DNA of 64,000 nucleotides, taken from positions 7,125 through 71,124 of the IMG/VR virus record IMGVR_UViG_3300009537_000004; one strand, given 5' to 3'. The translations under genes and the position numbers were made by a program. Below the pieces are notes generated by a model. The model was given only the letters and a program-made list of their open reading frames with translations. It made no database searches and was not told the origin of the DNA. Shown here piece by piece: positions 4,545 to 55,441 of the stretch; positions within the stretch are counted from its first letter, which is position 1, and each line of letters begins with the position of its first letter. This DNA comes from a virus.

Positions 4545-5488
4545 TGCCCAACCAACACAATTTTCCAGAGAAGCTGTCCAATTTACAACATGTTAGGCCG
4601 TCACGAGTTTCCAATGACGACTTAGCACTTATTGTTGCGCAGTCTCCCGAAGGCGACCCGATAGAAAGCAATATTGTCTTTGGACAAACTATCAGAGATG
4701 TTGTGGAAGTATATGTTTATGATGAACTCAATAACATCGTAGCTCAAATTAATGTCCGTCCAAACGATCCAGCCTTGAGATTGATTGCGTTTACTCCTGA
4801 ACAACAAGTAGGAGTCGGCCAAGACCAGAGTCCTGATTTACTACAAATGGATTTGGTCAGCATTATTGGAAGAGCTAATCTTCCTCCCGGCCGCTATTCA
4901 GTGGCAGTTAACTTTTTCAGGGATGAGGTCGGCCGGCAGGAAGGTGGAAATGAAACAAAGCTGTTCATCACAGACATTTCGCCGTCACGAACCGAAGTAA
5001 GATTGCAGCCCGTTCGCCCAACCGAAAAGCTCGTTGGAGAGATACGAGAATTCTCCAATCCGTCAGTTCCACACTTTGTTGCACAAGCTTTGATTGACCA
5101 AACTTTTGGAGTTTCTCTTGACCCCATAGAGAGAACAGAAACAATAACTTTACCTAAATTCTCAAGAGAATTGGCAAGATTAGATACAAAGGCTGGCACC
5201 ACTGGTAGCTTATCGGTTTCGTCAAGGCTTGATAGAGCTGGTTTGGGTGGCGATTTTTACGCAGATTTTGATATATCATTGAGATTGATTAGAGACAAAG
5301 CATTAGATATTCTTGCACAGAAAGCGTCAGATTTACAAGTGCAAAATAGAGAATTGCGTCAGATTATTAAAGAAGCTACGGAGCAAGTTCTTATTGAAAT
5401 GGTAACGGTTGGAGAAATTGACCCCCGATTGCAGTTAGTTGATTCGGATGGTAATGTAGTAACTCCAACTACAACAGGGCAAGGATAA
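4544..5488 (+). CDS. Putative baseplate-associated protein
   Basis: 314-aa ORF with 'LFITDISPSRTEVRL' motif; TAATG coupling at both ends. Confidence 0.65.
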   Translation: MPNQHNFPEKLSNLQHVRPSRVSNDDLALIVAQSPEGDPIESNIVFGQTIRDVVEVYVYDELNNIVAQINVRPNDPALRLIAFTPEQQVGVGQDQSPDLLQMDLVSIIGRANLPPGRYSVAVNFFRDEVGRQEGGNETKLFITDISPSRTEVRLQPVRPTEKLVGEIREFSNPSVPHFVAQALIDQTFGVSLDPIERTETITLPKFSRELARLDTKAGTTGSLSVSSRLDRAGLGGDFYADFDISLRLIRDKALDILAQKASDLQVQNRELRQIIKEATEQVLIEMVTVGEIDPRLQLVDSDGNVVTPTTTGQG

Positions 5489-6987
5489 TGGCAAAACTAA
5501 TAGATGACCAAGAACAAGAAGGAAGTTCAGGAGGCGGCGCAGAACAAGGGCCTACAACTCCTGTAACTCCACCTGCCGGTGGCCAAGGTCCGCTTGATCC
5601 TGGCCGAGATCTTGGTATACCTATAGCGAAATACCGCCAGCAACGATACACAAATTCTCTTCTATTTGGTCCACCGGCGGAAACTAAAATTGTTAGTGAA
5701 GCTGCCGTAGGAACTAATGTTGTAAATGCATCATACCGTTGGCAGGGTTATCAAGCCTTTTCTGCAGAACCAATAAAATTTACTATCAGGGGTGACGACG
5801 CATTTCGTCTTCTCATTGGCGACCAGCTGGTCATTGACCAAGCAGGAACTGGCCTTGGACGAGTCAAATCTGCCATAGTTGATATGCCAGCCGGCGAGAG
5901 CTTACTTATCGTAGAATGGCAAAAGTATGGTGGAGGAACCAAATCCGTCAGGATGAATTGGGACAAGGCAACGCCAGGGTGGGTCAGTTGTGAAGATGGA
6001 GTGAGAAGGCCGGGTGACCCGCCAGACGGCTGGATCCAGACCGAAACTAGCTGCTGGCGCCCACCAACTCCCGAAGAGATGGACTTGGCTGGCATCGTGC
6101 AGATCAGTCCAAGCTCGCCGATTGAGGTAGGCTACGCTCTCAGATCAGGAGCTCAAGCTCCGCCAGTAGTGGTGATGTTCTACAACAGAGCAACCAACCT
6201 CTCAGTCAACGTCCAGCTGGACGGACCAGCAGCCGCGGCGTTCTCCGAGGCTGCCTTCGAGCTCATGCCACAGGAGACACGGGAGGTGACCGTCACCTTC
6301 CCGCCAGCAGAGCTCGACCAGCTCGCTGAGGGCACGAGCACGTCAGCGATTGCTGTGGTGCTCTCTCAGGGATCGCTAGCGCCTGATGAGGACGCAAAGA
6401 TCGGGCCTCCTGTGGAGCCACCTGAGGAGCCGATCGTCATCCCGCCGCCTGACGCTCCTACGCCTCCACCTCTGCAGACGTGGTGTGACGCCTCTGGGCC
6501 GGAGGTGGTTACCCGTCCTGGCACTCCACCTGAAGACTGGACGCAGCGAGCAGACGGCTGCTACGTGCCGCCAGCAAGCACGACCCCGAGCGTCACGCTC
6601 GCAGCCACCTTCGCAGAGACAGCCCCGAAGCTGCTCGATGGCGTCAGCATCGCTCAAGGCTCGCTCGCAGCTAGCATCAGTGGTGACGACCCGAACCTCT
6701 GGTCCTGGGCGTGGGACCTGGACGTGCTCGGTCAGGGCTCAGGCACCGGCGACACAGCAGCGCGGTCACTCCTGGCACGCTGGGTGATGACGCAAGCAGA
6801 CCTGCAGGAGCTCGAGACCGCTGGTGCTGCGTCACGCCTGGTCGAGGTCGTCGCACGCAAGGGCACTGACGTACTGCGCAAGAGGATCAAGGCAGTGCTT
6901 GACGACCCGGCGCTAGCGCTGGTGACGTCACCTACGCAGCCGTCATCACTCCTGAAAACTACAGTAATAAAGAACATTCCAAACTAA
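5488..6987 (+). CDS. Virion protein with PA14-like domain and Pro-rich linkers
   Basis: 'FTIRGDDAFRLLIGDQLVID...IVEWQKYGGG' resembles PA14; Pro-rich segments. Confidence 0.65.
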   Translation: MAKLIDDQEQEGSSGGGAEQGPTTPVTPPAGGQGPLDPGRDLGIPIAKYRQQRYTNSLLFGPPAETKIVSEAAVGTNVVNASYRWQGYQAFSAEPIKFTIRGDDAFRLLIGDQLVIDQAGTGLGRVKSAIVDMPAGESLLIVEWQKYGGGTKSVRMNWDKATPGWVSCEDGVRRPGDPPDGWIQTETSCWRPPTPEEMDLAGIVQISPSSPIEVGYALRSGAQAPPVVVMFYNRATNLSVNVQLDGPAAAAFSEAAFELMPQETREVTVTFPPAELDQLAEGTSTSAIAVVLSQGSLAPDEDAKIGPPVEPPEEPIVIPPPDAPTPPPLQTWCDASGPEVVTRPGTPPEDWTQRADGCYVPPASTTPSVTLAATFAETAPKLLDGVSIAQGSLAASISGDDPNLWSWAWDLDVLGQGSGTGDTAARSLLARWVMTQADLQELETAGAASRLVEVVARKGTDVLRKRIKAVLDDPALALVTSPTQPSSLLKTTVIKNIPN

Positions 6988-6996
6988 GGTGAATAG

Positions 6997-8349
6997 ATGA
7001 CCGTTCCGGTAATACTTGTTACTCCATATCAGGACCCGCCCAACACCTTCCGTGCTACAAGCATTACGGATATGTTTCGTGTTGTGCCGGCTCCTGACAA
7101 GTATTGGAAAGATTTGGATAGTTTGGGAGCATCGTTTATCTATGATGTTGGGTTGGGTCCTGAAGTTAGGTCACTCATATTCACATTCCAAAACCGCACA
7201 GTCAGTCATACATTACGAGTGACGCTCACTTTACCACCATACTTACGATCAGATATAGGTAATGTGTTTGATGTTCCACGCATAATGGATACAACTACTC
7301 CTCCTGTGGTTGTTCCCGACGATTTGCCTGAGGGAGTTAGATTCTATCCAATAATTGTTCCAGAGACTTTTGCTCCCATTGAAGGAAGTGGCAAAGGTAT
7401 CATCAATGTATGGATTAGCTTCAGTGAAGAACAAGCAAAGACTTATATTCCAGGAACATTTGAGGAAGCAATAATAGTTGATGTGGTGCCATTGAATGTG
7501 AATGGTCCCGTTTTTGTTGATGAGACTGCTGTCGATCCGATTGACTTGAACGAAAAACTTGAAGAAGGTGATACAGTTCCTCGTGATGATGATGTCATCA
7601 CTCCACCAGACGAAGAACCTACTGACGAAGCCGAGTTAGAAGTTCCGGTGTTTATTGACCGCGACGTTGAAGTTCCTGTGGAAGTTATCAAGTGGATTGA
7701 CGGCACCGACGGCCAGAGTAAGGATTGGCCGCCGCCCGCGGGCTGGCAAGCAGGCAACGACGGCAGAATGTATCCGCCTATCATTGAATCGGAATGCGAA
7801 GTCATCACTGGCACAGAACGAAATGTGGAAGACATTCCAGAAGACCAAAGAACTCCTCTTGAACAATTGTTATTTGAATCTCTTGGTATTGCACCAACTT
7901 TTGGTGGCGCCACTCAGCGACGAGGCTATGTAATTGATCTCGACCCTCTACTGAGCGGTTTCAACACTAGCAGGGTAACAGGAAGAACTATTGAACTACT
8001 GATAGGGGATTCCAAGAAAGATGGTATTGGTTTCAAAATCATCAACTGGAAAAAAACATTCAAAAATGGAGAAACTGTTCCTCCACCTTCTAATTCAGAA
8101 ATACGGCAATTGTTTGAAAAGACAGAACTTTATACTGGGCATCTCAAAGAAGGTGTTATTGTGCCCGGTGGCATATTTAGTCCAGATAGGTTAGTAAGTT
8201 TGAGCATCAAAAAGCTGTTAGATGAAAATAAGAAGTTATATGTTGCGGAAGATGCAGACGAAGGTGACCTTCGCCGCATAAGAATTTGGGGAACTACAAT
8301 GGCGCTCGTCAAGGATATTGAGGCTAATGGGGAGGGCAAGCCAGTATAA
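6997..8349 (+). CDS. Hypothetical virion protein
   Basis: 450-aa ORF, RBS AAGGTG, shares a W-PP-W motif with the upstream gene. Confidence 0.65.
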   Translation: MTVPVILVTPYQDPPNTFRATSITDMFRVVPAPDKYWKDLDSLGASFIYDVGLGPEVRSLIFTFQNRTVSHTLRVTLTLPPYLRSDIGNVFDVPRIMDTTTPPVVVPDDLPEGVRFYPIIVPETFAPIEGSGKGIINVWISFSEEQAKTYIPGTFEEAIIVDVVPLNVNGPVFVDETAVDPIDLNEKLEEGDTVPRDDDVITPPDEEPTDEAELEVPVFIDRDVEVPVEVIKWIDGTDGQSKDWPPPAGWQAGNDGRMYPPIIESECEVITGTERNVEDIPEDQRTPLEQLLFESLGIAPTFGGATQRRGYVIDLDPLLSGFNTSRVTGRTIELLIGDSKKDGIGFKIINWKKTFKNGETVPPPSNSEIRQLFEKTELYTGHLKEGVIVPGGIFSPDRLVSLSIKKLLDENKKLYVAEDADEGDLRRIRIWGTTMALVKDIEANGEGKPV

Positions 8350-11300
8350 TGCCAAACTTGGAATCTAAAACGGTCAATCTAACACTGGTATTCAATATTA
8401 GTCCTGAAATACCAAAGTTTGATTCTGCGCCTCAATCAACGCTGTCAACCCTACAAGTCAACGGGCTTCCAATCCGAATGGAAGAGGCAATTACCAATAT
8501 TGCTAAACGATTGACGGCAGGAAAAATTGCTAGCTACTTTGATCCTGACCGTGAGCTCAAAACTCTGATAAACTTTGGTGAAGACACGCAAAGATTGCTT
8601 ACCAACTGGATGAAAGACCCAGCCAATCTTGCTAACCACGGAATTCTTGCAAAGCTCTATGAACCACTTCCAATCAACATTGATCCAAAGTCATTGTTAT
8701 GGATTAGTAGGGAACTGTCGCCAACGCTTCTTGACCAAATCGCGGTTGTCATCACTCCTGAACAACAAATCATTCTCTACCTACGTTCGCCTAATCGCGA
8801 TGCAGCAGCAGAAACTTCACCACAAGTTCAGCTCACAGATGTCACGCTAGCAGATTTGTTGGTATCGGGTTCCACCACATCAGGCTCACAAGTTATTGCA
8901 AGTAATCCAACGCTTGAGCAGTGGTATACTACTGCGTTAGAGGGCGTCTATCTAAATGTTGATTACACAGACTACAATAATTTTGTTCATTTTAGTTCGG
9001 CCGAAAATAGACTTCAAGTTTTCAGACAAAAGTTACTGAAAATAGAACAACTACAAAGTGCGCTAAATGTTCAGTCGGCCGCGGCCGTAGCTACTCTTTT
9101 TTCCAGTTCTTTGAGCAATGTCTCTGGAACTGCTCAATTCAAGGTAATGCAAAGCTTGGCAGACCAACAGCAAGACATCGTTCGCGGGTTTGATGGATAT
9201 GAACGATTCCTCTACTACAACTCCGGCTCTTTCACTGGATCGCTGTCAGGTCTTGACGAAGATGAAGTGCTTGAGATCGCGGACGTGTCTTGGCCTAAGT
9301 CCACCGGAAGTATTGCATATCCAACCGGCAGCGTGTTACCGGTGACGCACTCGTTGTCTGTGGCCTTCTATGATGCGCAGTCAGCAATAGCGACAGACTA
9401 TGACAGACAGAACGCAGAGTGGCTCGTCTTGAATGTTCCTGAATACATCCAAAACGATCCTGACTCTGCCGAGTTCCTAACATTCCTCAACATTGTTGGT
9501 CATCACTTTGATACGCTCAAGCTCTACATTGACCAGATGCCTGAGATTTATGACAGGGGTGCTGACCCCGACGCTGGCATCTCTCCTGACCTGCTTTGGA
9601 CACTAGCGCAATCACTTGGCATTGATCTTCCAAACCAATACGCCATCAAAAACTTGGTTGATTTCACGGTCGGTCGTGCAGCAGCAACGCAAAAGACCTA
9701 CTCTCAAGCAATCACGGAGACCTGGAAGCGCTTCATCCACAACCAGGTCTACATCGCAAAGACCAAGGGCACGCTGACAGGCTTGCTCGCACTGCGCAAC
9801 GTCTACGGGGTTCTTCCGCAGCTTGTGCGCATCCAAGAGTCAGCCACGCCGTCGTCGCTCTTCACGACTGGCTCCTTCGAGCTCTTCGATGAGCTCACAT
9901 CGGTCCTGACCTTCAACTCTGGAGCACGCGTGGAGGTGCCATTCTCGGCGACAGGCCAGGACCCTGACGTGGTGGAGCTGCGCTTCCGCGACACAGAGTT
10001 CGCGTCAGGCACCCTGATGACCGCCTACGACAGCACGCCGACCGCTCTGTGGTCCGTGCTCGTCAAGCCCACTGGCAGCGCTGACAACGGCCGGGGAGTG
10101 CTGCAGGTCGTCACTGACGCTGTGGTGTACGAGACCCCGAAGGGCGACTTCCTCAGCGGCGACTACTTCACGCTCATGCTTCGACGCACCACAGCTGGTC
10201 CTGTAGACCTGACCGTCAAGAGCTACGAGGACGAGCGCTTCACCTACGCGCACGGACCTGTGGAGCTCTCAGGCTCGCTCTCCGCGTCGTGGGATGCAGC
10301 CGTCAGCATCTCTCTTGGTGACGGCCTCTACAGCGGTTCCGTTGACGAGCTCCGTGTGTGGAGCGAGGTCACGACTGACGCAACCTTCGATGACCACGTG
10401 CGCTTTCCTGGCCTCTACGCCGGCAACTCGTTCAGCTCGTCCACGGACAGCTTGGTGGTGCGTCACTCGTTCAACGTACCGCGCGACCTGACGGTGACGC
10501 AATCGGTCACCAACGAGACTCCGTGGTCTGGTGCAATCGGTGCTTTGTCTGAATCAGTTGCGGTAGGGTTTGATGCAGCTGCAGCGTATCCATATCAGTT
10601 TGAGTGGATTGTACGTCAGACGCAAAGATTCTCCGCAAATGCTGGTGGAGAACAATACAGCAGTAATAATATTACCATCGCACCATCGGCCGATTACAAA
10701 CCTGGTACAGTTCAAGTAACAGGAAGTAATCAGATTCCTGTTCTGAGCAGGGATCGCAGAATACGAGCAATCCCATCGGGAAGCACGACTTTCCCCGGCG
10801 ACGAAATCAAACAAAGAAGTACCATTGGTTTCTATTTGACTTTGGCGGAAAGCATCAATGACAGCATTATGCGCTCAATGGGACAAATTGATCTCAGCCA
10901 GTTGATTGGAGATCCTCTAAACTTGTATGAAGAAAAGTATGTTGATTTGATTAGTCGTTATGAATATTATGTAAACAACTATTCGCCAACTTTCAACTAC
11001 AACAAATTTGCGAAATACACCGATGGATTGTTGGACGGTCTTTTTGCGCAGTCCAGAGCCAACATTCCAGCGTCAGCAAAGCTCATCACCGGAGTTGCCA
11101 TAGAACCGCCAATTCTTGAAAGAGCAAAGATTGTTCTGAATAAACCACTCAAGGTTGAAGGTTCCAATACTCGACGTGAAGCAGATGCACGAAACATTCT
11201 TGCAACTGAGGGAAGCTATCCAGGAGCTCGTTATGCAGAAGCTGAGATTGAAGAAACTGGGCTTCCTACACCTCTAGCAGATATGAAGCAATTGTTGACC

Positions 11301-12158
11301 ACAATTGAAGAAATTTCAAGAGAGGTTCTCAGTGATATTACTTTATTGAACCCACTTTTGAGTGTTGAAGATATTACAATTCCGTACGCGTTTATCACTC
11401 AATTGAACGGATTGGTTGAGTTTGAAGATGAATTTACCATACTGGCCATTGTTCCAAGCTATAGCACAACGATTGACGCAGACATTATAGGTACAGCAAG
11501 CTCGTCACTTTCTGACCAATTCAATTTCCAGGAAATAAAAGCGGAAAGTAGCTTCGACGACCCGCTTTCTACTACATACTTTACACATCCATCTGGTTCA
11601 TATGGACTTCTGGATTATGAGTTTGAAAGAATAAGAGAGAACATTCTCACAGACCGAGGCGCGTGGGTTAGAGGAACGCTTTATCGCGTCAACGATATGG
11701 TCACAATTAGTGGCAGCGAATATCGCTGTTTGACTGACAAAGTTTTGTCGGCAGCAGGAAATCCTGTGCCATTCGTCAGCTATGTTGCACCAAACCTTGA
11801 CACAAAAAACTGGACCAATGTAACCTATCGGCAGGTTCCGGTACTACGACTATTCAAAGCGGTCGTTAGTGGTTCAAGCCCTATAGGAATTGGTGGTACT
11901 ACAATAGTTCCATTCGGCCAGACGGGGTACACGCCGTTCACAGGCTACGCACCGCAGCACTTCAAGTTCTTCAGAAACACAGCCACAGGCTGGGTCAACG
12001 CTCGCTACGACGGCTGCTTGCAGACAGCAGCTACGACCACCGACGGAAAAGACCCTGTTGAAGTCTTCCCGAGCTCGGAGGCGCAGCTGTTCGTCAAGGA
12101 AGGTAGGTCTGTTCAGGACGACACGGACGAAGATGGACCAATCCTGACAGTAAGGTAA
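8349..12158 (+). CDS. Large baseplate wedge-like protein with LamG/concanavalin-like segment
   Basis: 1269 aa; 'NFVHFSSAE.RL..F..K', 'FLNIVGHHFD', 'KTKGT', 'YSGSVDELRVW'. Confidence 0.7.
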   Translation: MPNLESKTVNLTLVFNISPEIPKFDSAPQSTLSTLQVNGLPIRMEEAITNIAKRLTAGKIASYFDPDRELKTLINFGEDTQRLLTNWMKDPANLANHGILAKLYEPLPINIDPKSLLWISRELSPTLLDQIAVVITPEQQIILYLRSPNRDAAAETSPQVQLTDVTLADLLVSGSTTSGSQVIASNPTLEQWYTTALEGVYLNVDYTDYNNFVHFSSAENRLQVFRQKLLKIEQLQSALNVQSAAAVATLFSSSLSNVSGTAQFKVMQSLADQQQDIVRGFDGYERFLYYNSGSFTGSLSGLDEDEVLEIADVSWPKSTGSIAYPTGSVLPVTHSLSVAFYDAQSAIATDYDRQNAEWLVLNVPEYIQNDPDSAEFLTFLNIVGHHFDTLKLYIDQMPEIYDRGADPDAGISPDLLWTLAQSLGIDLPNQYAIKNLVDFTVGRAAATQKTYSQAITETWKRFIHNQVYIAKTKGTLTGLLALRNVYGVLPQLVRIQESATPSSLFTTGSFELFDELTSVLTFNSGARVEVPFSATGQDPDVVELRFRDTEFASGTLMTAYDSTPTALWSVLVKPTGSADNGRGVLQVVTDAVVYETPKGDFLSGDYFTLMLRRTTAGPVDLTVKSYEDERFTYAHGPVELSGSLSASWDAAVSISLGDGLYSGSVDELRVWSEVTTDATFDDHVRFPGLYAGNSFSSSTDSLVVRHSFNVPRDLTVTQSVTNETPWSGAIGALSESVAVGFDAAAAYPYQFEWIVRQTQRFSANAGGEQYSSNNITIAPSADYKPGTVQVTGSNQIPVLSRDRRIRAIPSGSTTFPGDEIKQRSTIGFYLTLAESINDSIMRSMGQIDLSQLIGDPLNLYEEKYVDLISRYEYYVNNYSPTFNYNKFAKYTDGLLDGLFAQSRANIPASAKLITGVAIEPPILERAKIVLNKPLKVEGSNTRREADARNILATEGSYPGARYAEAEIEETGLPTPLADMKQLLTTIEEISREVLSDITLLNPLLSVEDITIPYAFITQLNGLVEFEDEFTILAIVPSYSTTIDADIIGTASSSLSDQFNFQEIKAESSFDDPLSTTYFTHPSGSYGLLDYEFERIRENILTDRGAWVRGTLYRVNDMVTISGSEYRCLTDKVLSAAGNPVPFVSYVAPNLDTKNWTNVTYRQVPVLRLFKAVVSGSSPIGIGGTTIVPFGQTGYTPFTGYAPQHFKFFRNTATGWVNARYDGCLQTAATTTDGKDPVEVFPSSEAQLFVKEGRSVQDDTDEDGPILTVR

Positions 12159-12225
12159 GTGGTTATTTCTTGGGAACATAATATGTATAGATAGTTGAAA
12201 ATCAACTTATGGGAGCACAAAAACT

Positions 12226-12861
12226 ATGGGATACTTGAACAACGCAACACTAACAGTGGATGCTATCCTTACTAAGAAGGGGCGTGAACTGTTGGCAAAG
12301 GGTGAAGGTTTCAATATTACGCAGTTCGCAGTAGCGGACGACGAGGTTGACTACACTCTTTACACAACCGCACATCCGCTTGGAACCGATTTCTTTGGCA
12401 GTATCATTGAAAATATGCCCGTTTTGGAAGCCTCGCCCGACGAGACCCAAGGCATGCGGTTCAAGCTGGTTACGCTCCGAAGAGGAACAAAAGAAATTCC
12501 AATCATCGCAATTGGAACTACAAATATCGTTCTAACCGCAGGACAGTCAAACGCATTCCCAATTAGACCAACAACTTCTAAGGGGTTGAATGGTGCTGGA
12601 TTTGGATATACAGTGACTCTACACAACGCTGATGCAGCAACCCTAAATGGTAGTGGGTTGCCGGCAACCGTAAGAGCAACGACTCCTACGTTCTTGAGCG
12701 ACGTACAGAGCGCAAACGCAACTGTCGCTGTTGGTTTGGAATTCACTTTGATTCCGAAGGATGTAGCATCACAAATTGTAACACAATTAACAGTAGTCGG
12801 AAACCAAACTGGCGCATCAATTACGATTCCAGTTACGGTCAATCCAGAGCCTACGGTATAA
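12226..12861 (+). CDS. Conserved virion structural protein (baseplate/tail associated)
   Basis: 'MGYLNNATLTVDAILTKKGRELLA...ITQFAVADDEVDY'; RBS GGGAG. Confidence 0.7.
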   Translation: MGYLNNATLTVDAILTKKGRELLAKGEGFNITQFAVADDEVDYTLYTTAHPLGTDFFGSIIENMPVLEASPDETQGMRFKLVTLRRGTKEIPIIAIGTTNIVLTAGQSNAFPIRPTTSKGLNGAGFGYTVTLHNADAATLNGSGLPATVRATTPTFLSDVQSANATVAVGLEFTLIPKDVASQIVTQLTVVGNQTGASITIPVTVNPEPTV

Positions 12862-23655: not shown

Positions 23656-24297
23656 ATGTTCATTTACGCTATTAGAAAGAAAAGCAACCTCACACATGTT
23701 CTTATAGGACAAACTATTCAGAAAAATCCACAACAAAGATGGAAGTCCCATAAAAGAGCACTAAAAAGAAACATTCATAAAAATCCCCACATTCAAAATG
23801 CTTGGAATAAGTATGGTGAGGATGCATTTGAATTTGTTGTTTTGACAGAAGCCAGAAATCAAGATGAATTAGATAAACTTGAGTGGGTTTACGAGAAATT
23901 GTTTGGTTATTATAATCTTCGTGAGGGTGGGGGTGGTGGAAAATTCAGTGATGAAGCAAAAAGAAGAATGAGTGCTGCAAGAGTTGGAAAAGTTCCTTGG
24001 AACAAAGGATTAACCAAAGAAATTGACGACCGCATTCTAAGAGATAGTATTGCAAGACGGGGAAAGGGAAATCCTATGTATGGAAGGAATTGGTCGCCTA
24101 AGCAACGAAAAATCATGAGAAAACAAATAGGCGAAAATCACCCGAACGCAAAACTTACTGAGAAAGATGTTATGGAGATAAGAAGAAGACATCAACCTTA
24201 TAAAGTGGGATTTGGAAAACTGGCCAAAGAATATGGAGTAGATAAAAAATTGATTATTAATATTGTTAAACGACAAATTTGGAAACATGTGAAGTAA
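23656..24297 (+). mobile_element. Free-standing GIY-YIG homing endonuclease with NUMOD3-like repeats and C-terminal HTH
   Basis: 'FIYAI...LIGQT...RW..H...H.N..IQNAWNKYG...FEF', 'YNL..GG', 'G.GNPMYG', 'GENHPNAKLT'. Confidence 0.8.
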
Positions 24298-27593: not shown

Positions 27594-30275
27594 ATGGCTA
27601 AGATCAAGAAGTTTAAATCCAAACAGAATCTACGCAGAATTAAGGTCTTTAAAGAAGACACACAACCAGGATCAAGATTCTTTCAGCTAAGAGAAGTTCC
27701 ACAAATTTTACACAGCGGAAAGAACGCATTTCTTATTCAGGGGTCAGAGAATCTAAATCCCAACACTGAAGTATTGGTTGAGATTTTGGATGCCAATGGT
27801 GACACAATCTTCAACCAGCCAATTCCAAAGTATGCGGAGGGACAGGCCCGCGTCGTTTCTGTTGAGATTTACGAAGATACCCCTCCTGGTCCAGGACTGC
27901 TGATTATAGTAGGTGAAGCTGATACTGATGAAGATGGGAGTCCAATTCCTGACCAATGGAGAGGGACTTATAATGTTAGGTATCAACAAAGAATTACTAT
28001 TGACCCGCTGAGAATTAATACCAGCAAGATTAGACTATATCAAAGACCAACCTTGGCAGTAACAGAGATTTTATCTCCGTTCAGAAAGTCTGTTCAGTCG
28101 GGTGTTATTGAGGCTGTGGGTTCGGGCTCAACCACCATCCTTCAGCAATCCGCCGGAGCTACTGGTTCTGCTACTTTCAACCAAGTTTTTACTGCTCCCG
28201 TCGCTTCGCTTTCCCGCTCAATGGAAGATGGGACAATCAAATTGGCCATTTCGACGCCCGATGGCATATTACCACAAACATCTTCCATAAAAACGGTGCT
28301 CAATAGCTTTACGGCATTTTTGGATGACAAGCTGAATATTAGTCCCGGCCTAGTCTATCCCGTTTCGGCTTATACAATCAGCTTTCAAGACACCCCAATA
28401 TTTTCTCCTACTCTGCTAAGTCGCTCTTTGGCCGATGTTAAGTTGGACAAACTGACCACATTTTCTGGTGATATAGCTCGAGCAAGATTCTATGTCAGAT
28501 CTATTGACTTCGGCGGAGACTTTGAGTTGGTGTTGGATACAAGGTTAGAATCAACAATACTGACGCAAACAGCTTCAGCTGAATTCGGTCCTGCAACACA
28601 AATGGGAGATTTCAATGACCAGCAAGTTATTGACCTATTTTGGAGCGGCGGCTATGTGACAACTTCTGTTTCTCCTCCATATCTTCCAAGCTCAGAGGTA
28701 GTGTTGGCAAGGAATACATCCGTATTGGCAGATTCTATGTACGTTTCTTCTGATACTCCTGTTGGCATTGGAGGGACTAGCGGATACAAAACCAATCCAG
28801 CAGAACAATTTTTTGGAAACTTCCGTAGATTAGAACCATCAATGAGTTTCCATGATGAACTGGAATATAGTCTGGAATTCAATACAATCTGCGAGAAGGA
28901 TAACGATGCCTTCAATGCTAGAATGGATGTCTACTTGTCCGGTAGTGCTTTTCCTAGTGACAATCCTCTTGGCGTATTGCTGACTACTTTAGAATCTCCA
29001 ATTGGACAAATAGAGAGAGTGTTCACTGATAATGCCGTCAATTTTGTTCCGTCCCGCGACGGCGCAGGATATTTGGTTTTTGTTGTATGGGGCGGAGATT
29101 GGTATATTTCAGATGTAGTTTTGCAATCATCCTTTGAAACCGGCTTCAATCCCGACCAAGTTGAATTCATCATTCCTGTTCTTGGAAAGAGATTTGAGAA
29201 CCTGGAATTCAAAGCTGAACTGTTTGATCCAAGCAACAACTATCTTGGGTTTGATGTTCTTTCCGACGTTGTGCTTTTTAATGGTGGAAATTTATTGATT
29301 CGTGGAACAGATCATAGGGTTGAAGGACGGCTAACTGTGTCTCCATCTGGTTCAGGCGTCACTATTTCGTCTGACGGATATTTTGATGAAGATGGTTCAC
29401 CAATGTCTGGTTCCGCAATCTACACCGGAGAAGGAAGATGGTTTCATAAGGATACCGCAATTCTTTTGGCAGAAGATACTGACGGTAATCCAAGAATTAG
29501 TTTTGGAGACAAACTGAAGGGTTATGTTGATTCTGTAACCGGCGAGTTTGTTCTTATCGTTCAAGGAACTATTCTTGTGGGAACAGGATCATTAGTAACG
29601 GACATTCTAAGTTTACTTCCAAGACTTCCTACGGATGATTTCTACCACAGAATTCGTGGAATCAATCTTGACTTTTATGATGTGCAAGGCAAGAAGGCAC
29701 TCACTGCAGGAGAAGTAGAATCCGCAACCGACTCTCAATTTGCATCTTCTGAACAGATTGCTAGAATGGGTAAATATACTCGTGGCACAATTCCACGAAC
29801 GGTTCCGGATGAGTCACCATTGATTGTGTCCGGAGTCACTGCATCATTCAATCCGCTATCAGCAGCAACGGTAACAGCAACCATTTCATCGTCAGGAACA
29901 ATTGAAGTTCCAGCGGGCGTAGTCATATGGAATAATACTCTCTATGGCAACATGCTTGTGGACATTGATGAGTTGGAGCTTACCAGCTCCGCATACTCAG
30001 TGAATATGGAACTGATAGTAGATACAAGCTGGGTGGGCTATTCTTCAGGAAGCAATCCTGGACTTAGCTCCGATGTTTTGGATTTGAGCGGAACTCGTGT
30101 TGTGCAAACCATTTCTGATGACGCAGACTTTTGGGTCACGGTCACTGGTAGTTTTTCTCCAAACCCATTTCTTTCGTATCCAATTCATATTCCAGAGGAC
30201 CGGCCGGATGGATACAACACGCTTTATGTTGTAGTATCTTTGACTGTAACTACAACAAGAAGTGACCAGGTGTAA
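27594..30275 (+). CDS. Large tail/virion protein
   Basis: 893 aa, beta-rich, SGS motifs, preceded by TACTTAT. Confidence 0.65.
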   Translation: MAKIKKFKSKQNLRRIKVFKEDTQPGSRFFQLREVPQILHSGKNAFLIQGSENLNPNTEVLVEILDANGDTIFNQPIPKYAEGQARVVSVEIYEDTPPGPGLLIIVGEADTDEDGSPIPDQWRGTYNVRYQQRITIDPLRINTSKIRLYQRPTLAVTEILSPFRKSVQSGVIEAVGSGSTTILQQSAGATGSATFNQVFTAPVASLSRSMEDGTIKLAISTPDGILPQTSSIKTVLNSFTAFLDDKLNISPGLVYPVSAYTISFQDTPIFSPTLLSRSLADVKLDKLTTFSGDIARARFYVRSIDFGGDFELVLDTRLESTILTQTASAEFGPATQMGDFNDQQVIDLFWSGGYVTTSVSPPYLPSSEVVLARNTSVLADSMYVSSDTPVGIGGTSGYKTNPAEQFFGNFRRLEPSMSFHDELEYSLEFNTICEKDNDAFNARMDVYLSGSAFPSDNPLGVLLTTLESPIGQIERVFTDNAVNFVPSRDGAGYLVFVVWGGDWYISDVVLQSSFETGFNPDQVEFIIPVLGKRFENLEFKAELFDPSNNYLGFDVLSDVVLFNGGNLLIRGTDHRVEGRLTVSPSGSGVTISSDGYFDEDGSPMSGSAIYTGEGRWFHKDTAILLAEDTDGNPRISFGDKLKGYVDSVTGEFVLIVQGTILVGTGSLVTDILSLLPRLPTDDFYHRIRGINLDFYDVQGKKALTAGEVESATDSQFASSEQIARMGKYTRGTIPRTVPDESPLIVSGVTASFNPLSAATVTATISSSGTIEVPAGVVIWNNTLYGNMLVDIDELELTSSAYSVNMELIVDTSWVGYSSGSNPGLSSDVLDLSGTRVVQTISDDADFWVTVTGSFSPNPFLSYPIHIPEDRPDGYNTLYVVVSLTVTTTRSDQV

Positions 30276-31102
30276 TGTCCGCAAGCCTTGAGTTTGCAAT
30301 TGCTGGTTTCGGCGGTCCCGTGGGGCCGGTGTTCTACTACGCGGTCACCTCGGCGTCAGCAGCACGCAGGGGCCTCTTCCTACAGGGCGTGAGCGGCTCG
30401 CCGCAGCTCTCTCTACAGCCGCGAAGCGGAAGCCCTGCTTTCCTTCTTCCTGGTGACCTGTGGTATCAGCAGAGTGGAAGCACTGGTGACCCGAACCTCT
30501 TCATCGCTGAGCAGTGGCCAGGCGAAGACCCGGCAGCGCACCGCTTCGTGCTTGCTCGTGAGGGTGAGACCGTGGTGCAGGCGGTCACTCGCTTCGCCAC
30601 GGGTGACGCCCCTGCCGACCTGTTCGCCGGCGCGAACGCTGTCGTCGTCAACGGCTTCTTCATCACGGCCAACACCGCTGCGGTCAGCGGTGCTCTCGTG
30701 CGCAATGCGACGTGGGACGGCGGCTTCTTCATGCCTGACGCAAGCACCGTGGCCGTGTCTGGTACGGTTGACCTGCTCGTCCCGAGCGGCTCGCTCACGG
30801 TCGAGCGCGGCGACCTGTCTGTGCTGTCCGGCTCGATCTACGTCTACAGCGGCAGCGTCACGCTAGCAGGTGAGACAGCATCGTTCGACATCAGCGGCTC
30901 CAGCGTGACCGCATCGTTGCTTGGCAACCCAATCATGAGCGTCAAAACAGGTTCCGTTAGCTCGGCCTCCCTATCACCAATCCCGATTGATGGAACTCTG
31001 TACGTCAACACTTCTAGCTTAGATATTAGTGTTCGTGCCAGCGGACAGTTCTATGATTTGACGTTCACTGCGCCGGATTTGGTTGATGGAGGCACTTACT
31101 AA
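30275..31102 (+). CDS. Tail-fibre-associated protein, paralog of 35615..36727
   Basis: Shared 'GLF...SP.LS..P......LPGD', 'LVRN..WDGG..M.D...VA..GT', C-terminal 'DGG.Y'. Confidence 0.65.
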   Translation: MSASLEFAIAGFGGPVGPVFYYAVTSASAARRGLFLQGVSGSPQLSLQPRSGSPAFLLPGDLWYQQSGSTGDPNLFIAEQWPGEDPAAHRFVLAREGETVVQAVTRFATGDAPADLFAGANAVVVNGFFITANTAAVSGALVRNATWDGGFFMPDASTVAVSGTVDLLVPSGSLTVERGDLSVLSGSIYVYSGSVTLAGETASFDISGSSVTASLLGNPIMSVKTGSVSSASLSPIPIDGTLYVNTSSLDISVRASGQFYDLTFTAPDLVDGGTY

Positions 31103-34643: not shown

Positions 34644-35615
34644 ATGGAAAGAAGAAGGATTTGGATTCCTGAAAGTTATTGTTCTTCTATTGTGGAATTA
34701 CCACCAATTGGTATAGGTGGATACTTCTATGTTGATTTGATTGACGCAAAAACAGGTCACATCAGACAGCACTTGGAGTTTTCTAATCTCATTACAGACG
34801 ATGGCTTGGACCTTATCGGAACAGGTATCAGTTTGGACTCAATCTACAACGAGCTCGCGGTCGGCACTGGCACTACCGCTCCCGCGGTCACCGATACTGC
34901 TCTTGAGAATGAAGTTGCTTCCACAACAAACGACAATAACATTGCTGATGTAGACGGAACGACCAGCAGCCCACGAGAGTATTCGTTTCGCCGCCGGACG
35001 CGAGTATTTTTAGAAGGCGAAGCCAATGATGATTTGACGGAGTTGGGTTGGAAGGTCGGGTCAACATTAGCAAATCGTGCACTATTCAAAGATTTGGCAG
35101 GAAATTCAACAACGGTTTACAAGACCAGCAATGATATTCTTCAAATTTCTTACGAGTATCGAATCTTTGCTCCTCTTGTTGATTTGTCAGGAAGTTTTGA
35201 TTTAGGTGCCGGTTCTGGAAGTGCAACCTATACTCTCCGACCACAAAATGTGAACCAAGCAGACGGATGGGGCGCTCTCCGAAGTGATATGGGAGACTTA
35301 TCAACTGCATTTGCTAAGTTACATGAAACTTCTACTTTAGGGTCACGAACTGGGAATAACGACCCGTCGCCGTCAGATGAAGAATCCAGTAGCAGTTTAG
35401 CTCCTTATACACCTGGCAATTATTACAGAGATATAGAATATGTGTGGACATTTGCCGCCGCAAATTTTACAACTGGTGTTGGTTTGATTACTTGGAATCC
35501 GTGGTATACTACTGGTAACAAAGCAATATGGCAAATGAGTTTGAGCGGCCAAATAGCTAAGAGCGCCGCAACTAAATTCACCATATTTTTCCGTCAAGCA
35601 TGGAATAGAGTCTAA
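34644..35615 (+). CDS. Tail protein, paralog of 33583..34632
   Basis: As above; AGGAG RBS. Confidence 0.7.
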   Translation: MERRRIWIPESYCSSIVELPPIGIGGYFYVDLIDAKTGHIRQHLEFSNLITDDGLDLIGTGISLDSIYNELAVGTGTTAPAVTDTALENEVASTTNDNNIADVDGTTSSPREYSFRRRTRVFLEGEANDDLTELGWKVGSTLANRALFKDLAGNSTTVYKTSNDILQISYEYRIFAPLVDLSGSFDLGAGSGSATYTLRPQNVNQADGWGALRSDMGDLSTAFAKLHETSTLGSRTGNNDPSPSDEESSSSLAPYTPGNYYRDIEYVWTFAAANFTTGVGLITWNPWYTTGNKAIWQMSLSGQIAKSAATKFTIFFRQAWNRV

Positions 35616-36727
35616 TGGCCCTCCCTACCGGATCTGTAGGACAAAGTTGGGGAACTTTCGCGTTTCCAATCACTGCCGGTTCGCCAGCAGTATCTCGTTC
35701 TTTGCCTACCGAATTTGTGGTCACTTATGAAGCACCTGAAGGATTGTATGCTTCCTGTTTGTCAACCTACACTCTTCGCACCAGAGAGATGGGACAAGTT
35801 AGCAGCTCCATTGCGGACTTGGGCGATTATCAGAGAATCACATGGCGGATACTTGACACAACTGCTCCTGGCGTCATTGATACTGTTTTCTTCACCGTCC
35901 GTGGCGCGCTAGTCATTGGTATCGGCGATATAGAATTCTATTATCAATTTGAGTTCGGTGTGTCAGAATCACTACAACGCCGTAAAGGATTGTTCATTAC
36001 TTCGGAGTCATCACCACACCTAAGCATAGAGCCGTTCAATTTCCAAACAAACCTAAAATTACCTGGTGACATATATCTTATCCCTTCTGGACTGAGCATT
36101 GACCCAGGACTTAGGATTATTGAGGTAGGAGCAACCGGAAATCAATACACCGGTAGCTTCTGGACAGCAAGGTTGACGCAATCTATTGATGAATTGATTA
36201 GCAGAGTAACTGCTTCTAATGCTGTCTATGCTCTCACCGGCCTAATCACAGACAGAGGATATGTAACGCCACTGTCGGGTGGAATAGCTCCATTAGTTAG
36301 AAACTGGGATTGGGATGGTGGTTTGTATATGGCCGATTCCACTTCTGTTGCTATTTACGGAACTAACAAAAACTTTCTGATTCCATCAGGAAGCCTAATC
36401 ATTAGGGATGGAAGTGAAATCCTTTCCGGCTCTGTAAATGTAGAAAGTGGTAGTATTTATATACGAGGGCCCGCTGTGCGCTTTGATATGCTTGGAGAGA
36501 GCGCATCAGCGTTCGTACAGGGACAGCCGTTTGTGCATTTGACGCAAAGCACCTCTCCAATAGTAAGTGTGGAATCGGGTTCACCGTTTTTGCCGGATGG
36601 AACGATGGTATTGGTTCCTGACCCAGCAACTTCGTCACTTCTACAAGAAATGCACATAAGAGCAAAAGGTAATTGGTATACTTTGGTGACGCAATCGTTT
36701 GATGTAATGGACGGCGGATTCTACTAA
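35615..36727 (+). CDS. Tail-fibre-associated protein, paralog of 30275..31102
   Basis: The C-terminal ~240 aa align by eye with 30275..31102. Confidence 0.65.
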   Translation: MALPTGSVGQSWGTFAFPITAGSPAVSRSLPTEFVVTYEAPEGLYASCLSTYTLRTREMGQVSSSIADLGDYQRITWRILDTTAPGVIDTVFFTVRGALVIGIGDIEFYYQFEFGVSESLQRRKGLFITSESSPHLSIEPFNFQTNLKLPGDIYLIPSGLSIDPGLRIIEVGATGNQYTGSFWTARLTQSIDELISRVTASNAVYALTGLITDRGYVTPLSGGIAPLVRNWDWDGGLYMADSTSVAIYGTNKNFLIPSGSLIIRDGSEILSGSVNVESGSIYIRGPAVRFDMLGESASAFVQGQPFVHLTQSTSPIVSVESGSPFLPDGTMVLVPDPATSSLLQEMHIRAKGNWYTLVTQSFDVMDGGFY

Positions 36728-54043: not shown

Positions 54044-55441
54044 ATGCCGCAGAATCCGATGATGGGAAAGGGCCCACTTCGTCACTCCAACAAGGTGAGA
54101 ACCGCACACGATTCGGTCGCATCTAACGATGTTGACGATTTTGATCGTGGAGGCTACCCTGGGAAGCGTCATATTGATGTGGAAGCAAATCCCGTCAAAG
54201 TGATTGCTGAATTTTCCAGATTAGGAGAAGCACTTCGTCGCACCGGTACATTCAGAGAAGTAGCAGAACAAATTGCACGCATCTCTGAGATGGCCGAAAA
54301 CACGGTCATGCAGGAAGCCGGCGATTGGTTTGACGCACAGACAATCAAGCGCAACATGAAAGAGCTAGGTAGCTACTCCAAGGACTTCGGCAAGCTGGCC
54401 GAAGAGATGGACGCGATGCAGCAACGCGCAACTGCTCTCTACGACGACATGGGCAACGTGCTCTCCCGCTACTTCGAGCTCGCTGGCCCAGCAGCTGAAG
54501 AAGCTGAGGAAGCGCCGTTCGGCGGCAAGAAGGCCCCGAAGTTCGACGGTCCTGGCGGCAACCCCGCTGACGACCGCGGTCGCTCAGCTTGGGACGCACG
54601 CAGCAGCATTGACGCCAACGACGCCGACTTCGGTGGCAAGCAGGCACCCGCCTTCGACGGCCCCGGTGGCAACCCAGCAGACGACGCCGGACGCAAGGCG
54701 TGGGACGTGCGCGACGGCGAAGAGGACGACAGTGACGACGAACTGGAAGAAGGTGGACCTGGTAGTGGCCGCCGAGACAACGGGTTTAAGAAACGATATG
54801 GAGTGGATAAAACTACTGTAGCTAAGAGAAAGCTTGACCCGAAAAGTAGAGGTCGCATTCCAGGAGGAATGACCAAGAGTGCTGCTAGGTCGCACTTGCG
54901 CAGAGCCGGAGAAAATGTTGGTGCCAACGAATCAGCAGTCGCGCCCAACTCCTACAACGCTCGCCGTGCATTGAGACTTCCGCGAGCACAGCAAAGAATT
55001 CAAGGCGGATTCACTCGTGACCAGGCAAAAGACATTCTTCGCAAGGAAGGAGCTAAGACCGTATCGGAGGCAAAGAAATGTCTCTACAAAGAAATTATGA
55101 GATTGGCAGAATCAAATCAACTGACGGAAGCTCAAACTAAAGTTGTCAATGTTGATACTTTTTTGAGTATACTGAAGAATAAAAAGTTCCGTATTGGATT
55201 TGGTAGTCACAGCTATTCTACAAATGATCCGCCGTCATTTACAGATGCCAAAATAACCAAAGGAAAAATCATACAACTTAAAAAAGATCCTCAAGGTTTG
55301 TATGACCACCCAAGGGGAACATGGGAATATTTAGGAAATAATAAAATCAGAATGGTCTTAGAAGGAGAAATCAATTTTCCTAAAGACGGCAGAAAGAAAA
55401 TGCTAAGAGAAGCTGACCCTTTCGTAAAGAGGCCGAGCTGA
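54044..55441 (+). CDS. Multi-module head-region protein with helical core and internal repeats
   Basis: Core 'DWFD..TIKRNMKEL...ALYDDMG.VL.RYF'; 37-aa repeat twice (period 111 nt). Confidence 0.75.
   Translation: MPQNPMMGKGPLRHSNKVRTAHDSVASNDVDDFDRGGYPGKRHIDVEANPVKVIAEFSRLGEALRRTGTFREVAEQIARISEMAENTVMQEAGDWFDAQTIKRNMKELGSYSKDFGKLAEEMDAMQQRATALYDDMGNVLSRYFELAGPAAEEAEEAPFGGKKAPKFDGPGGNPADDRGRSAWDARSSIDANDADFGGKQAPAFDGPGGNPADDAGRKAWDVRDGEEDDSDDELEEGGPGSGRRDNGFKKRYGVDKTTVAKRKLDPKSRGRIPGGMTKSAARSHLRRAGENVGANESAVAPNSYNARRALRLPRAQQRIQGGFTRDQAKDILRKEGAKTVSEAKKCLYKEIMRLAESNQLTEAQTKVVNVDTFLSILKNKKFRIGFGSHSYSTNDPPSFTDAKITKGKIIQLKKDPQGLYDHPRGTWEYLGNNKIRMVLEGEINFPKDGRKKMLREADPFVKRPS

What the first reader, a model, noticed from the sequence alone, without database searches (positions are those of the whole stretch)
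5960..6954. A/T-tract-free island 1 of 4: a DNA-level code overlaid on coding sequence, with cores of about 450 bp
Seen (hand scan): 5960-6954 has no run of four A/T, and 6512-6954 (443 nt) has no run of even three, whereas flanking DNA usually has several such runs per 60 nt. This is not plain high GC3. A/T-ending codons (GCA, GCT, TCA, GGT, ACA) remain common. Codons that could create WWW (GAT, CAA, GTA, CTT, CTA) are each followed by G/C in the stretch I decoded, 6541-6954. The island starts and ends mid-gene. The same pattern recurs at 9695-10591, 30302-30943 and 54301-54784, with cores of 460, 464 and 423 nt, in four unrelated genes. TGAC/GTCA also looks enriched (about 20 in this island). 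Inference: selection on DNA shape or protein occupancy. Possibilities are zones excluding an AT/minor-groove-binding protein (H-NS/Lsr2/MvaT-like or phage-encoded), loading or pausing sites for packaging, ejection or partitioning machinery, or a localised mutational process. I know of no described equivalent.
Basis: partly seen in the sequence, partly recalled or inferred. Interest (0 to 1): 0.85.

Follow-up and report, generated by a model that had tools for sequence, protein, structure and literature searches.

The report
A/T-cluster-free recoded phage gene segments
Four stretches of 0.5 to 1 kb inside genes of an uncultured T4-like phage are written so that A and T almost never sit side by side; the pattern is real and unusual, but its cause is still open (shielding from AT-reading proteins, or import from a sister phage).

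Summary
The 71-kb contig (an IMG/VR virus record, T4-like, 44% GC) has exactly four intervals of 488-999 nt without any run of four A/T. The next longest is 205 nt. They have about 63% GC and lie in frame inside four unrelated structural genes.

This is not plain high GC3. Silent third positions flanked by G/C stay A/T-rich (53%, against 65% in the rest of the phage). With one A/T neighbour the share falls to 20%, and with two to 3%. One parameter, a penalty of about 2 log-odds units per adjacent A/T pair on the clade's own codon table, predicts island codons better than three real high-GC phage codon tables.

The penalty looks alike for all four A/T pair types, reaches 2 nt, and has also removed F/Y/I/M/N/K residues. 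Of five natural controls, only mycobacteriophage L5 comes close. Two rhizobial plasmids show the opposite trend.

Relatives' DNA at the same columns is ordinary for all four islands. Protein divergence is no higher inside the islands than outside.

A fifth, 240-nt patch abuts a site where a relative carries a GIY-YIG homing endonuclease gene. The origin is unresolved: in situ selection or conversion from a close sister lineage. No reads and no DNA of close relatives could be obtained. This scan has noted smaller recoded GC patches in other phages.

The parts
5957..6957 (+). Island 1: 999 nt free of WWWW inside gene 5488..6987 (499 aa). It covers everything C-terminal to the PA14 domain and ends about 30 nt before the stop codon.
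   Evidence: GC3 change points 5938-6954; GC3 0.68 inside, 0.29 outside. PA14 domain. Relatives' DNA is ordinary at these columns.
9692..10594 (+). Island 2: 901 nt free of WWWW in the middle of gene 8349..12158 (1269 aa, gene of the baseplate region).
   Evidence: GC3 change points 9711-10526; two-lnL support ranges of 12 and 7 codons. Relative L005 has GC3 0.35 against 0.76 here. Protein identity to P0008/P0009 is 0.67-0.68 in the island and 0.67 in the flank.
30299..30946 (+). Island 3: 646 nt free of WWWW, covering residues 9-224 of gene 30275..31102 (275 aa). The gene is a 33%-identical paralog of 35615..36727 and lies next to a tail-fibre-like gene.
   Evidence: The ortholog in G002 (L093) has GC3 0.38 against 0.75 here. 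Protein relatives at 76-84% identity have ordinary composition.
54298..54787 (+). Island 4: 488 nt free of WWWW inside gene 54044..55441 (465 aa, head-gene module).
   Evidence: GC3 change points 54278-54739. Relative L086 has GC3 0.40 against 0.70 here.
11919..12158 (+). Fifth, small patch with the same signature at the 3' end of gene 8349..12158. It abuts the intergenic site where relative L005 carries a GIY-YIG endonuclease gene.
   Evidence: GC3 0.70; WWW 5 against 38 in the preceding 240 nt; P(A/T at third position) is 11/18, 12/42 and 1/17 with 0, 1 and 2 A/T neighbours; the endonuclease gene lies between orthologous genes in L005 and is absent from the window.
60270..60956 (+). GIY-YIG (Seg-type) endonuclease gene directly after the major capsid gene 58418..60148. 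It is not adjacent to any of the four islands.
   Evidence: (PF01541 5.3e-10; PF07068 Gp23 1.4e-74).
23656..24297 (+). Second GIY-YIG endonuclease gene of the contig. It is not adjacent to any island.
   Evidence: genome 30780-31028 = window 23656-23904, 34.9 bits; ORF.

Best explanation
The four islands, and a fifth 240-nt patch, are native in-frame parts of this phage's own structural genes. Their DNA has been rewritten under a weak, pervasive penalty on A/T standing next to A/T. The penalty looks alike for all four A/T pair types and acts on top of the clade's ordinary AT-leaning codon preferences. It is about 2 log-odds units per adjacent pair and is still felt two bases away. The 63% GC and the lack of A/T runs are its consequences, and it has also pushed the proteins away from F/Y/I/M/N/K.

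Shown: the rule itself, its similar size for all four pair types, its range, its restriction to these segments, and its absence from relatives.

Inferred: the penalty is selection on the duplex that denies footholds to proteins reading AT-rich, narrow-minor-groove DNA. The most concrete candidate is the Seg-type (GIY-YIG) homing endonucleases that circulate among co-infecting relatives. I also infer that the recoding arose in this lineage, or in a very close sister from which it was copied by gene conversion.
For: - Context rule: P(A/T at a silent third position) is 171/323, 100/496 and 5/155 with 0, 1 and 2 A/T neighbours. Elsewhere in the phage it is 0.65, 0.65-0.68 and 0.53. With no A/T within 3 nt, the island intercept (0.47, s.e. 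0.19) is close to the background's (0.72).
- Model fit over 971 codon sites: the window's own codon table times one adjacent-A/T penalty gives lnL -999.3. Tables of relatives L086 and L005 give -1003.7 and -1015.6, a uniform table -1028.3, and Syn5, L5 and phiKMV -1072.9, -1088.8 and -1095.8. Plain GC pressure on the same table is 55 lnL units worse.
- Penalties for AA, AT, TA and TT are 1.6, 2.2, 1.9 and 2.2, and similar in each island.
- Relatives' DNA at the island columns has GC3 0.29-0.40 against 0.68-0.76 in the window, while flanks are equal. This was tested for 4 of 4 islands.
- Protein identity inside the islands is not lower than outside.
- F/Y/I/N/K/M residues lost against gained: 37:10 in islands 1 and 2, 27:44 in their flanks (Fisher P 1.4e-5).
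- 84 loci of relatives (754 kb) hold no such island.
- Link to endonucleases: the fifth patch, with the same signature, abuts a site that is occupied by a GIY-YIG gene in relative L005 and empty here.
Against: - No endonuclease gene lies next to any of the four large islands. The nearest are 5-6 kb away. No insertion was seen at these places in the relatives examined.
- Islands of 0.5-1 kb are far longer than a nuclease target.
- The two sites that do hold an endonuclease gene in this contig are not flanked by strong patches.
- No function is known for such zones.
- Sharp edges in mid-gene also fit recombination junctions.
- At silent sites flanked by G/C, island usage correlates only moderately with the phage's own usage (r 0.55, against 0.23-0.33 for three high-GC phages) and differs from it significantly (P 2e-4).
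- L5's most extreme 750-nt blocks reach the same neighbour dependence (slope -1.61).
- Everything rests on one metagenomic contig whose reads I could not inspect.
Confidence: 0.45

Rival explanations
1. Recombinant patches. Four segments were copied by recombination or gene conversion from an unsampled relative whose whole genome is about 63% GC and carries this signature genome-wide, as L5 does in milder form.
For: - Edges are sharp: support ranges of 7-12 codons for island 2 and 10-12 for island 4.
- All four islands share one signature.
- The islands are absent from relatives at the same loci.
- The four genes are unrelated.
- Genome-wide W-run depletion does exist in nature: L5 has a shuffle ratio of 0.55 and WWWW-free runs up to 2822 nt.
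- Mosaic exchange in tail genes of T-even phages is established knowledge (recalled, not checked here).
Against: - Island codon choice is predicted best by this clade's AT-leaning table plus one penalty, and much worse by three real high-GC phage tables.
- A partly ameliorated L5-like import does not fit. Matching the 0.53 at isolated sites would predict about 0.48 and 0.36 at sites with one and two A/T neighbours; 0.20 and 0.03 are observed (my arithmetic).
- No donor-like protein was found among 5.8 billion. The best non-self hits are 51%, 68% and 81% identical, and all have ordinary composition.
- No donor was found in IMG/VR.
- Island 3's protein is 84% identical to ordinary-composition relatives over the island columns. 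A donor would therefore have shifted its whole genome by 19% GC within about 16% protein divergence.
- Only 1 of 4 tested junctions lies on a strongly conserved motif.
- It needs eight in-frame junctions between DNA of low identity.
Confidence: 0.25
2. A local, context-dependent mutational process (for example repair synthesis after repeated breaks) turns A/T into G/C where A/T are clustered, with no selection for the result.
For: - At four-fold sites with one A/T neighbour, the loss of A (0.36 to 0.14) matches the gain of G (0.13 to 0.36). The loss of T (0.32 to 0.10) matches the gain of C (0.18 to 0.40), as transitions alone would give.
- The effect looks alike for all four A/T pair types.
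- Homing endonucleases, which make breaks, are active in this phage group.
Against: - Several codon families do not follow transitions. GGA is replaced by GGC, not GGG. AGA is replaced by CGC. CTC exceeds CTG.
- No such mutational process confined to 0.5-1 kb is known to me in phages.
- There is no centred G-then-C strand pattern in islands 1 and 2.
Confidence: 0.1
3. Assembly chimera. The assembler spliced pieces of a co-occurring GC-rich relative into the contig.
For: - It is a single metagenomic contig, estimated 38% complete.
- No sequencing run could be listed, so coverage was not checked.
Against: - All eight junctions are in frame and keep colinear homology with relatives.
- Two sequences with GC3 0.4 and 0.75 would share almost no long exact words for an assembler to join (inference).
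- The codon 'accent' is that of the same clade.
Confidence: 0.07
4. Selection on translation or on the mRNA: optimal codons, avoidance of AU-rich RNase sites, or RNA structure.
For: Two-fold codons end in C or G in 73-100% of cases (cysteine, with only 4 codons, is 50%), as in highly expressed genes. RNase E is known to prefer AU-rich sites (established knowledge, recalled).
Against: - The first base of the next codon matters as much as the codon's own second base: 0.53 against 0.21, and 0.20 against 0.03.
- AA and TT, and AT and TA, are penalised about equally.
- RNA folding is no stronger than in shuffles: z +0.53 and -0.07 for islands 4 and 3; islands 1 and 2 were not folded.
- The islands cover only parts of genes.
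Confidence: 0.05

Closest known systems
Genome-wide A/T-run depletion in mycobacteriophage L5 (measured here)
   Same: WWW is depleted beyond synonymous shuffles (ratio 0.55-0.57) and beyond a codon-position Markov model (0.64). WWWW-free runs reach 2822 nt. A/T at third positions is rarer beside A/T (slope -0.96; the most extreme block -1.61).
   Different: In L5 the property is genome-wide in a 62% GC genome with GC3 0.83, and isolated silent sites are also G/C-rich (A/T share 0.32). Here it is confined to five segments of a 44% GC genome, and isolated silent sites stay A/T-rich (0.53).
Intronless homing and marker exclusion by free-standing Seg/Mob endonucleases of T-even phages (SegG co-conversion, Liu et al. 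2003: seen only as an entry in the reference list of PMC10055350; the rest recalled)
   Same: It concerns T4-like phages with GIY-YIG genes between conserved genes. One site is occupied in a relative and empty here, and the empty site is bordered by a recoded patch. Conversion tracts of hundreds of bases are known for this system (recalled).
   Different: None of the four large islands adjoins an endonuclease gene or a known insertion site. I know of no published report of 0.5-1 kb recoding as resistance. Cutting was not tested.
Mosaic segments in tail-fibre and baseplate genes of T-even phages (recombination between conserved motifs; recalled, not read here)
   Same: There are sharp-edged foreign-looking segments inside structural genes. 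Three of the four island genes lie in baseplate or fibre regions.
   Different: The island proteins are as close to relatives as their flanks are. The codon table is the clade's own. One island lies in a head-module gene.
Avoidance of xenogeneic silencers that read AT-rich DNA (H-NS, MvaT, Lsr2, Rok; review PMC8476142, seen only as a search listing and the start of its abstract)
   Same: A constraint that looks alike for all four A/T pair types, acts on clustered A/T and has a range of a few base pairs is what exclusion of a minor-groove reader would produce.
   Different: Such avoidance should act genome-wide or at promoters, not in four mid-gene blocks. The host and its silencers are unknown, and nothing was tested.
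Smaller 'recoded GC patches' noted earlier by this scan in AT-rich lake phages (AI notes e1-5377297, e1-5377308, e1-5319542, e1-5633310; unchecked)
   Same: These are in-frame stretches of conserved phage genes with silent positions switched to G/C, often beside homing endonuclease genes or where relatives carry inteins or introns.
   Different: Those patches are 120-250 nt and mostly silent. These are 490-1000 nt, change the protein composition too, and show no adjacent endonuclease gene. Whether the older patches follow the same neighbour rule is unknown to me.

Membership tests
Recombinant patch from a high-GC donor genome | Compositional break with sharp edges | tested here: met
   GC3 is 0.68-0.81 inside against 0.29-0.42 outside. 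Edges are resolved to 7-12 codons for islands 2 and 4. The left edge of island 1 is graded.
Recombinant patch from a high-GC donor genome | Codon usage of a foreign, GC-driven genome at all silent sites | tested here: not met
   Isolated silent sites are 53% A/T. The clade's own table plus one penalty fits 74-97 lnL units better than three high-GC phage tables given the same penalty.
Recombinant patch from a high-GC donor genome | A different history of the segment (excess divergence or changed nearest relatives) | tested here: not met
   Identity to relatives, island against flank: 0.67-0.68 against 0.67; 0.51 against 0.39, 0.53 against 0.52 and 0.73 against 0.60; 0.84 against 0.73. In a star-like family this test has little power.
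Recombinant patch from a high-GC donor genome | A donor or donor-like sequence exists | tested here: inconclusive
   None was found among the proteins searched or in IMG/VR. The phage's own lineage is itself represented only by this contig.
Recoded target or co-conversion tract of a homing endonuclease | Adjoins an endonuclease gene, or an empty site that relatives fill | tested here: not met
   Met only for the fifth patch, 11919-12158. Not met for islands 1-4: the GIY-YIG genes lie at 23656 and 60270, and no HNH or HNH_3 match was found. LAGLIDADG and other families were not searched.
Recoded target or co-conversion tract of a homing endonuclease | The recoded allele resists cutting | not testable with these tools
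   This needs enzyme assays.
Diversity-generating retroelement variable region | A template repeat elsewhere, and adenine-specific differences | tested here: not met
   No second copy of any island lies in the 71-kb contig. A and T are lowered alike. The contig is only 38% complete, so a template outside it cannot be excluded.
Plain high-GC3 coding DNA | W-run depletion explained by codon usage alone | tested here: not met
   Synonymous shuffles give 2.3-3.2 times more WWW. The plain GC-pressure model is 55 lnL units worse than the neighbour model. Two plasmids of 58-62% GC have 16-25 WWWW per kb and positive slopes.
Structured RNA element | Folding energy below that of shuffles | tested here: not met
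   z is +0.53 for island 4 and -0.07 for island 3. Islands 1 and 2 were not folded.

The most novel reading that the evidence does not exclude
A T4-like phage maintains, by weak selection at hundreds of sites, blocks of 0.5-1 kb of duplex DNA free of A/T clusters inside its own structural genes. The price is a change in their protein composition. The blocks would act as DNA-level armour or exclusion zones against AT-reading proteins: homing endonucleases of rival phages, host silencers or nucleases. If so, a functional layer of phage genomes could be read from sequence alone through a simple neighbour rule.
Probability: 0.3. Interest if true: 0.8.

Novelty: new variant of a known kind. Interest (0 to 1): 0.6.

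Why it matters
If the blocks are maintained by selection, they reveal a distributed constraint on phage DNA that overrides both codon preference and protein conservation. That would give a sequence-only way to find where AT-reading proteins (homing nucleases, silencers, defence nucleases) bite on phage genomes.

If instead they are conversion tracts, they show that a sister lineage has recoded its DNA by 19% GC within about 16% protein divergence, and that such DNA still recombines into AT-rich kin. Either answer bears on how phage genes are exchanged and protected.

The neighbour-dependence measure used here separates this pattern from plain GC richness. It differs strikingly between phages (negative) and two bacterial plasmids (positive), which deserves a wider survey.

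Tried and rejected
Plain high GC3 was rejected by the shuffles and by the neighbour analysis.

'A generic property of high-GC coding DNA' was my own reading after the L5 control. I withdrew it when phiKMV and Syn5 proved weaker and pSymB and pAtC58 showed the opposite sign. Of 146 control blocks of 750 nt, 1 reaches the islands' pooled slope.

A transitions-only hypermutation fits some codon families and fails for Gly, Arg and Leu.

The idea that junctions sit on conserved motifs held for 1 of 4 junctions.

Motif searches found a few enriched words (GACCTG 11 against 1.3). These are codon pairs that the Markov null does not model, so I drew no conclusion.

A G-then-C strand pattern was not seen in islands 1 and 2 and was only a weak trend in islands 3 and 4.

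The paralog of the island 3 gene is only 33% identical, too old for a silent-site test.

Neighbour slopes in the very AT-rich relatives are ill-conditioned and were not used.

The PHROGs library gave nothing for the four island proteins. The PDB gave only PA14 for protein 1.

Literature: three full-text searches listed no paper on mid-gene A/T-run-free or GC-rich blocks in phage genes. I saw listings and abstract starts only, plus two passages of PMC10055350. Supplements were not consulted.

Sequencing runs: none was listed, so neither coverage nor variants were examined.

Unused: structure prediction, fold search, complex prediction, the search of protein representatives, the protein-atlas search, read laying.
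Full report
WHAT THE WINDOW IS. The window is bases 7125-71124 of a single 71,124-base contig. The contig is an IMG/VR virus record, linear, with CheckV completeness 38%. It encodes a T4-type portal (PF07230, 1.4e-63), a Gp23-type capsid protein (PF07068, 1.4e-74), a baseplate wedge protein and a tail-fibre-like protein. Nearly all long ORFs lie on the + strand. GC is 44.3%. No close relative is in the phage collection: there was no match for 5400-7400, and 6 records matched the head region at 65-69% identity.

THE OBSERVATION. Below, W stands for A or T. Intervals free of WWWW are 5957-6957, 9692-10594, 30299-30946 and 54298-54787 (999, 901, 646 and 488 nt). The next longest is 205 nt, in the window and in the whole contig. 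GC in these stretches is 0.60-0.64. Genes outside them carry 159 WWW and 81 WWWW per kb.

The islands lie in frame inside ORFs 5488..6987, 8349..12158, 30275..31102 and 54044..55441. The island peptides are unrelated to one another, and no island has a second copy in the contig. Synonymous shuffles give 2.3-3.2 times more WWW than observed; at most 1 of 2000 shuffles per island reaches the observed count. A codon-position first-order Markov model expects 52.2 WWW against 29 observed.

NOT PLAIN GC. GC3 in the islands is only 0.68-0.76. I sorted silent third positions by the number of A/T neighbours, counting the codon's second base and the next codon's first base.

Share of A/T at silent third positions, by number of A/T neighbours, with the log-odds slope per neighbour:
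| Source | 0 neighbours | 1 neighbour | 2 neighbours | Slope |
|---|---|---|---|---|
| Islands, pooled | 0.53 (171/323) | 0.20 (100/496) | 0.03 (5/155) | -1.58 |
| Rest of the phage | 0.65 | 0.65-0.68 | 0.53 | about -0.3 |
| L5 | 0.32 | 0.16 | 0.06 | -0.96 |
| Syn5 | 0.56 | 0.37 | 0.27 | -0.63 |
| phiKMV | 0.27 | 0.19 | 0.12 | -0.50 |
| pSymB | 0.18 | 0.25 | 0.28 | +0.30 |
| pAtC58 | 0.29 | 0.35 | 0.34 | +0.13 |

The per-island slopes are -1.89, -1.57, -1.23 and -1.47. The background slope of about -0.3 comes (median sliding-window slope -0.28; fitted neighbour coefficient -0.27). Of 146 control blocks of 750 nt, one (in L5) reaches -1.58.

The next-codon base acts as strongly as the within-codon base, which rules out tRNA choice as the cause. 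At four-fold sites flanked by G/C, the islands keep usage close to the phage's own. For example, GCN before G/C is A .32, C .17, G .16, T .35, against .40.16.13.32 in the background. With A/T neighbours, A and T are replaced by G and C. The effect extends to the second neighbour (-0.60, s.e. 0.13) but not to the third. With no A/T nearby, the island intercept is close to the background's. Slopes below -1.6 occur only inside the islands among 636 sliding windows.

A ONE-PARAMETER DESCRIPTION. I took the phage's own codon table and multiplied each codon's weight by exp(-lambda) per A/T-A/T step it would form. This gives lambda 1.95 and lnL -999.3 over 971 codon sites. Tables of two AT-rich relatives do nearly as well (-1003.7, -1015.6). 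A uniform table gives -1028.3, and the tables of Syn5, L5 and phiKMV with the same penalty give -1072.9, -1088.8 and -1095.8. A plain GC-pressure term on the same table is 55 units worse than the neighbour term. AA, AT, TA and TT are penalised at 1.6, 2.2, 1.9 and 2.2, with similar values in each island. A value near 2 is the size usual for weak selection such as codon bias (inference).

The change is not by transitions only: GGA gives way to GGC, AGA to CGC, and CTC exceeds CTG. RNA folding of islands 3 and 4 is no stronger than that of shuffles.

THE PROTEINS. Each island is colinear with homologs. DNA of relatives at the island columns is ordinary. GC3 is 0.39 and 0.29 (L001, L005) against 0.68 for island 1; 0.35 against 0.76 for island 2; 0.38 against 0.75 for island 3; and 0.40 against 0.70 for island 4. 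Flanks are alike.

Protein identity is not lower inside than outside: 0.67-0.68 against 0.67 for island 2 with its nearest relatives, and 0.84 against 0.73 for island 3. Composition is shifted only inside. F+Y+M+I+N+K is 0.105 against 0.17-0.20 in five relatives for island 1, and 0.17 against 0.22-0.28 in eight relatives for island 2. Residues whose codons begin with two A/T, and that are conserved in relatives, were lost 37 times and gained 10 times in islands 1 and 2. In their flanks the counts are 27 and 44. Island 1 starts just after a PA14 domain.

WHERE DID THEY COME FROM. An ordinary high-GC donor is unlikely. Isolated silent sites are A/T-rich in the clade's own manner, and a partly ameliorated L5-like import does not fit the numbers. 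An assembly chimera would need eight in-frame joints between sequences that share almost no long words, but I could not inspect reads.

Two readings remain:
- The recoding arose in place.
- It arose in a close sister lineage, locally or genome-wide, and was copied in.

For island 3 the protein is 84% identical to relatives of ordinary composition over the island columns. A genome-wide donor would therefore have shifted by 19% GC within about 16% protein divergence, which I consider less likely than the recoding of 3 kb (inference). No donor was found in the protein collection or in IMG/VR. The 84 loci of relatives (754 kb) hold no WWWW-free run longer than 276 nt. I could not obtain the DNA of the closest relatives, which would decide this.

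A LEAD ON FUNCTION. Earlier notes of this scan describe patches of 120-250 nt, recoded towards G/C, beside homing endonuclease genes in other AT-rich phages (AI notes, unchecked). Following that lead, I found two GIY-YIG genes in the contig, at 23656..24297 and 60270..60956, the latter directly after the capsid gene. Neither adjoins an island.

Relative L005 carries a GIY-YIG gene (11987..12655) between the ortholog of gene 8349..12158 and the ortholog (76% identical) of gene 12226..12861. The window lacks it. The last 240 nt of the window's gene, 11919-12158, form a fifth patch with the same signature. GC3 is 0.70, and WWW is 5 against 38 in the preceding 240 nt. The A/T share at silent sites is 11/18, 12/42 and 1/17 with 0, 1 and 2 A/T neighbours. 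So one patch of this kind borders an empty homing site.

For the four large islands the link is only by analogy. Islands 1 and 3 do end within about 30 nt of a gene junction, but no relative examined has an insertion there.

VERDICT. The rule is not without natural parallel (L5). Its cause is not shown, and import from a sister lineage is not excluded.

My best reading, at 0.45, is weak selection on the duplex against clustered A/T within this phage lineage or a very close one. Shielding from AT-reading proteins such as homing endonucleases is the most concrete mechanism. I rate it a new variant of a known kind (locally recoded or mosaic segments in phage genes), with interest 0.6.

Noticed in passing
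window 11919-12226 and L005 11915-12732: This is a polymorphic homing site. Relative L005 has a 222-aa GIY-YIG gene between two conserved genes. The window has a 67-nt spacer there, bordered upstream by a 240-nt recoded patch.
   Followed up: partly
window 58418-60956: A GIY-YIG gene sits directly after the Gp23-type capsid gene; as I recall, segD holds the same position in T4. The last 500 nt of the capsid gene have raised GC3 (0.55-0.57) and neighbour slopes down to -1.49, but high expression confounds this.
   Followed up: partly
L004, L088, L089 against L090-L092: The neighbour dependence of silent A/T is negative in three phages (-0.96, -0.63, -0.50) and positive in two rhizobial plasmids of similar GC (+0.30, +0.13). 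None of the 65 plasmid blocks of 750 nt is WWWW-free, against 8 of 26 in L5. This may be a general difference between phages and bacteria, or between lineages.
   Followed up: no
window 24301-27501: One 1066-aa ORF joins a calcineurin-like phosphoesterase domain (Mre11/gp47-like) to an AAA_23/SMC_N domain (Rad50/gp46-like). As I recall, these are separate genes in T4.
   Followed up: no
window 8349-12158 against P0008-P0015: The eight relatives aligned are 1453-1517 aa long and carry about 200 extra N-terminal residues that the window's 1269-aa protein lacks.
   Followed up: no
window 5488-6987: After the PA14 domain, protein 1 holds two similar Cys-containing modules (W-x-S/D-C/A-E/S-D/G-G ... 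PP-x-x-W ... C-W/Y-x-PP) that are invariant across the family. Both lie inside island 1.
   Followed up: no
window 9143-9695, 59626-60091, 62249-62702: These are stretches with intermediate GC3 (0.53-0.58) and neighbour slopes of about -0.8 to -1.5. They may be weak, old or nascent versions of the islands, or ordinary codon bias.
   Followed up: no
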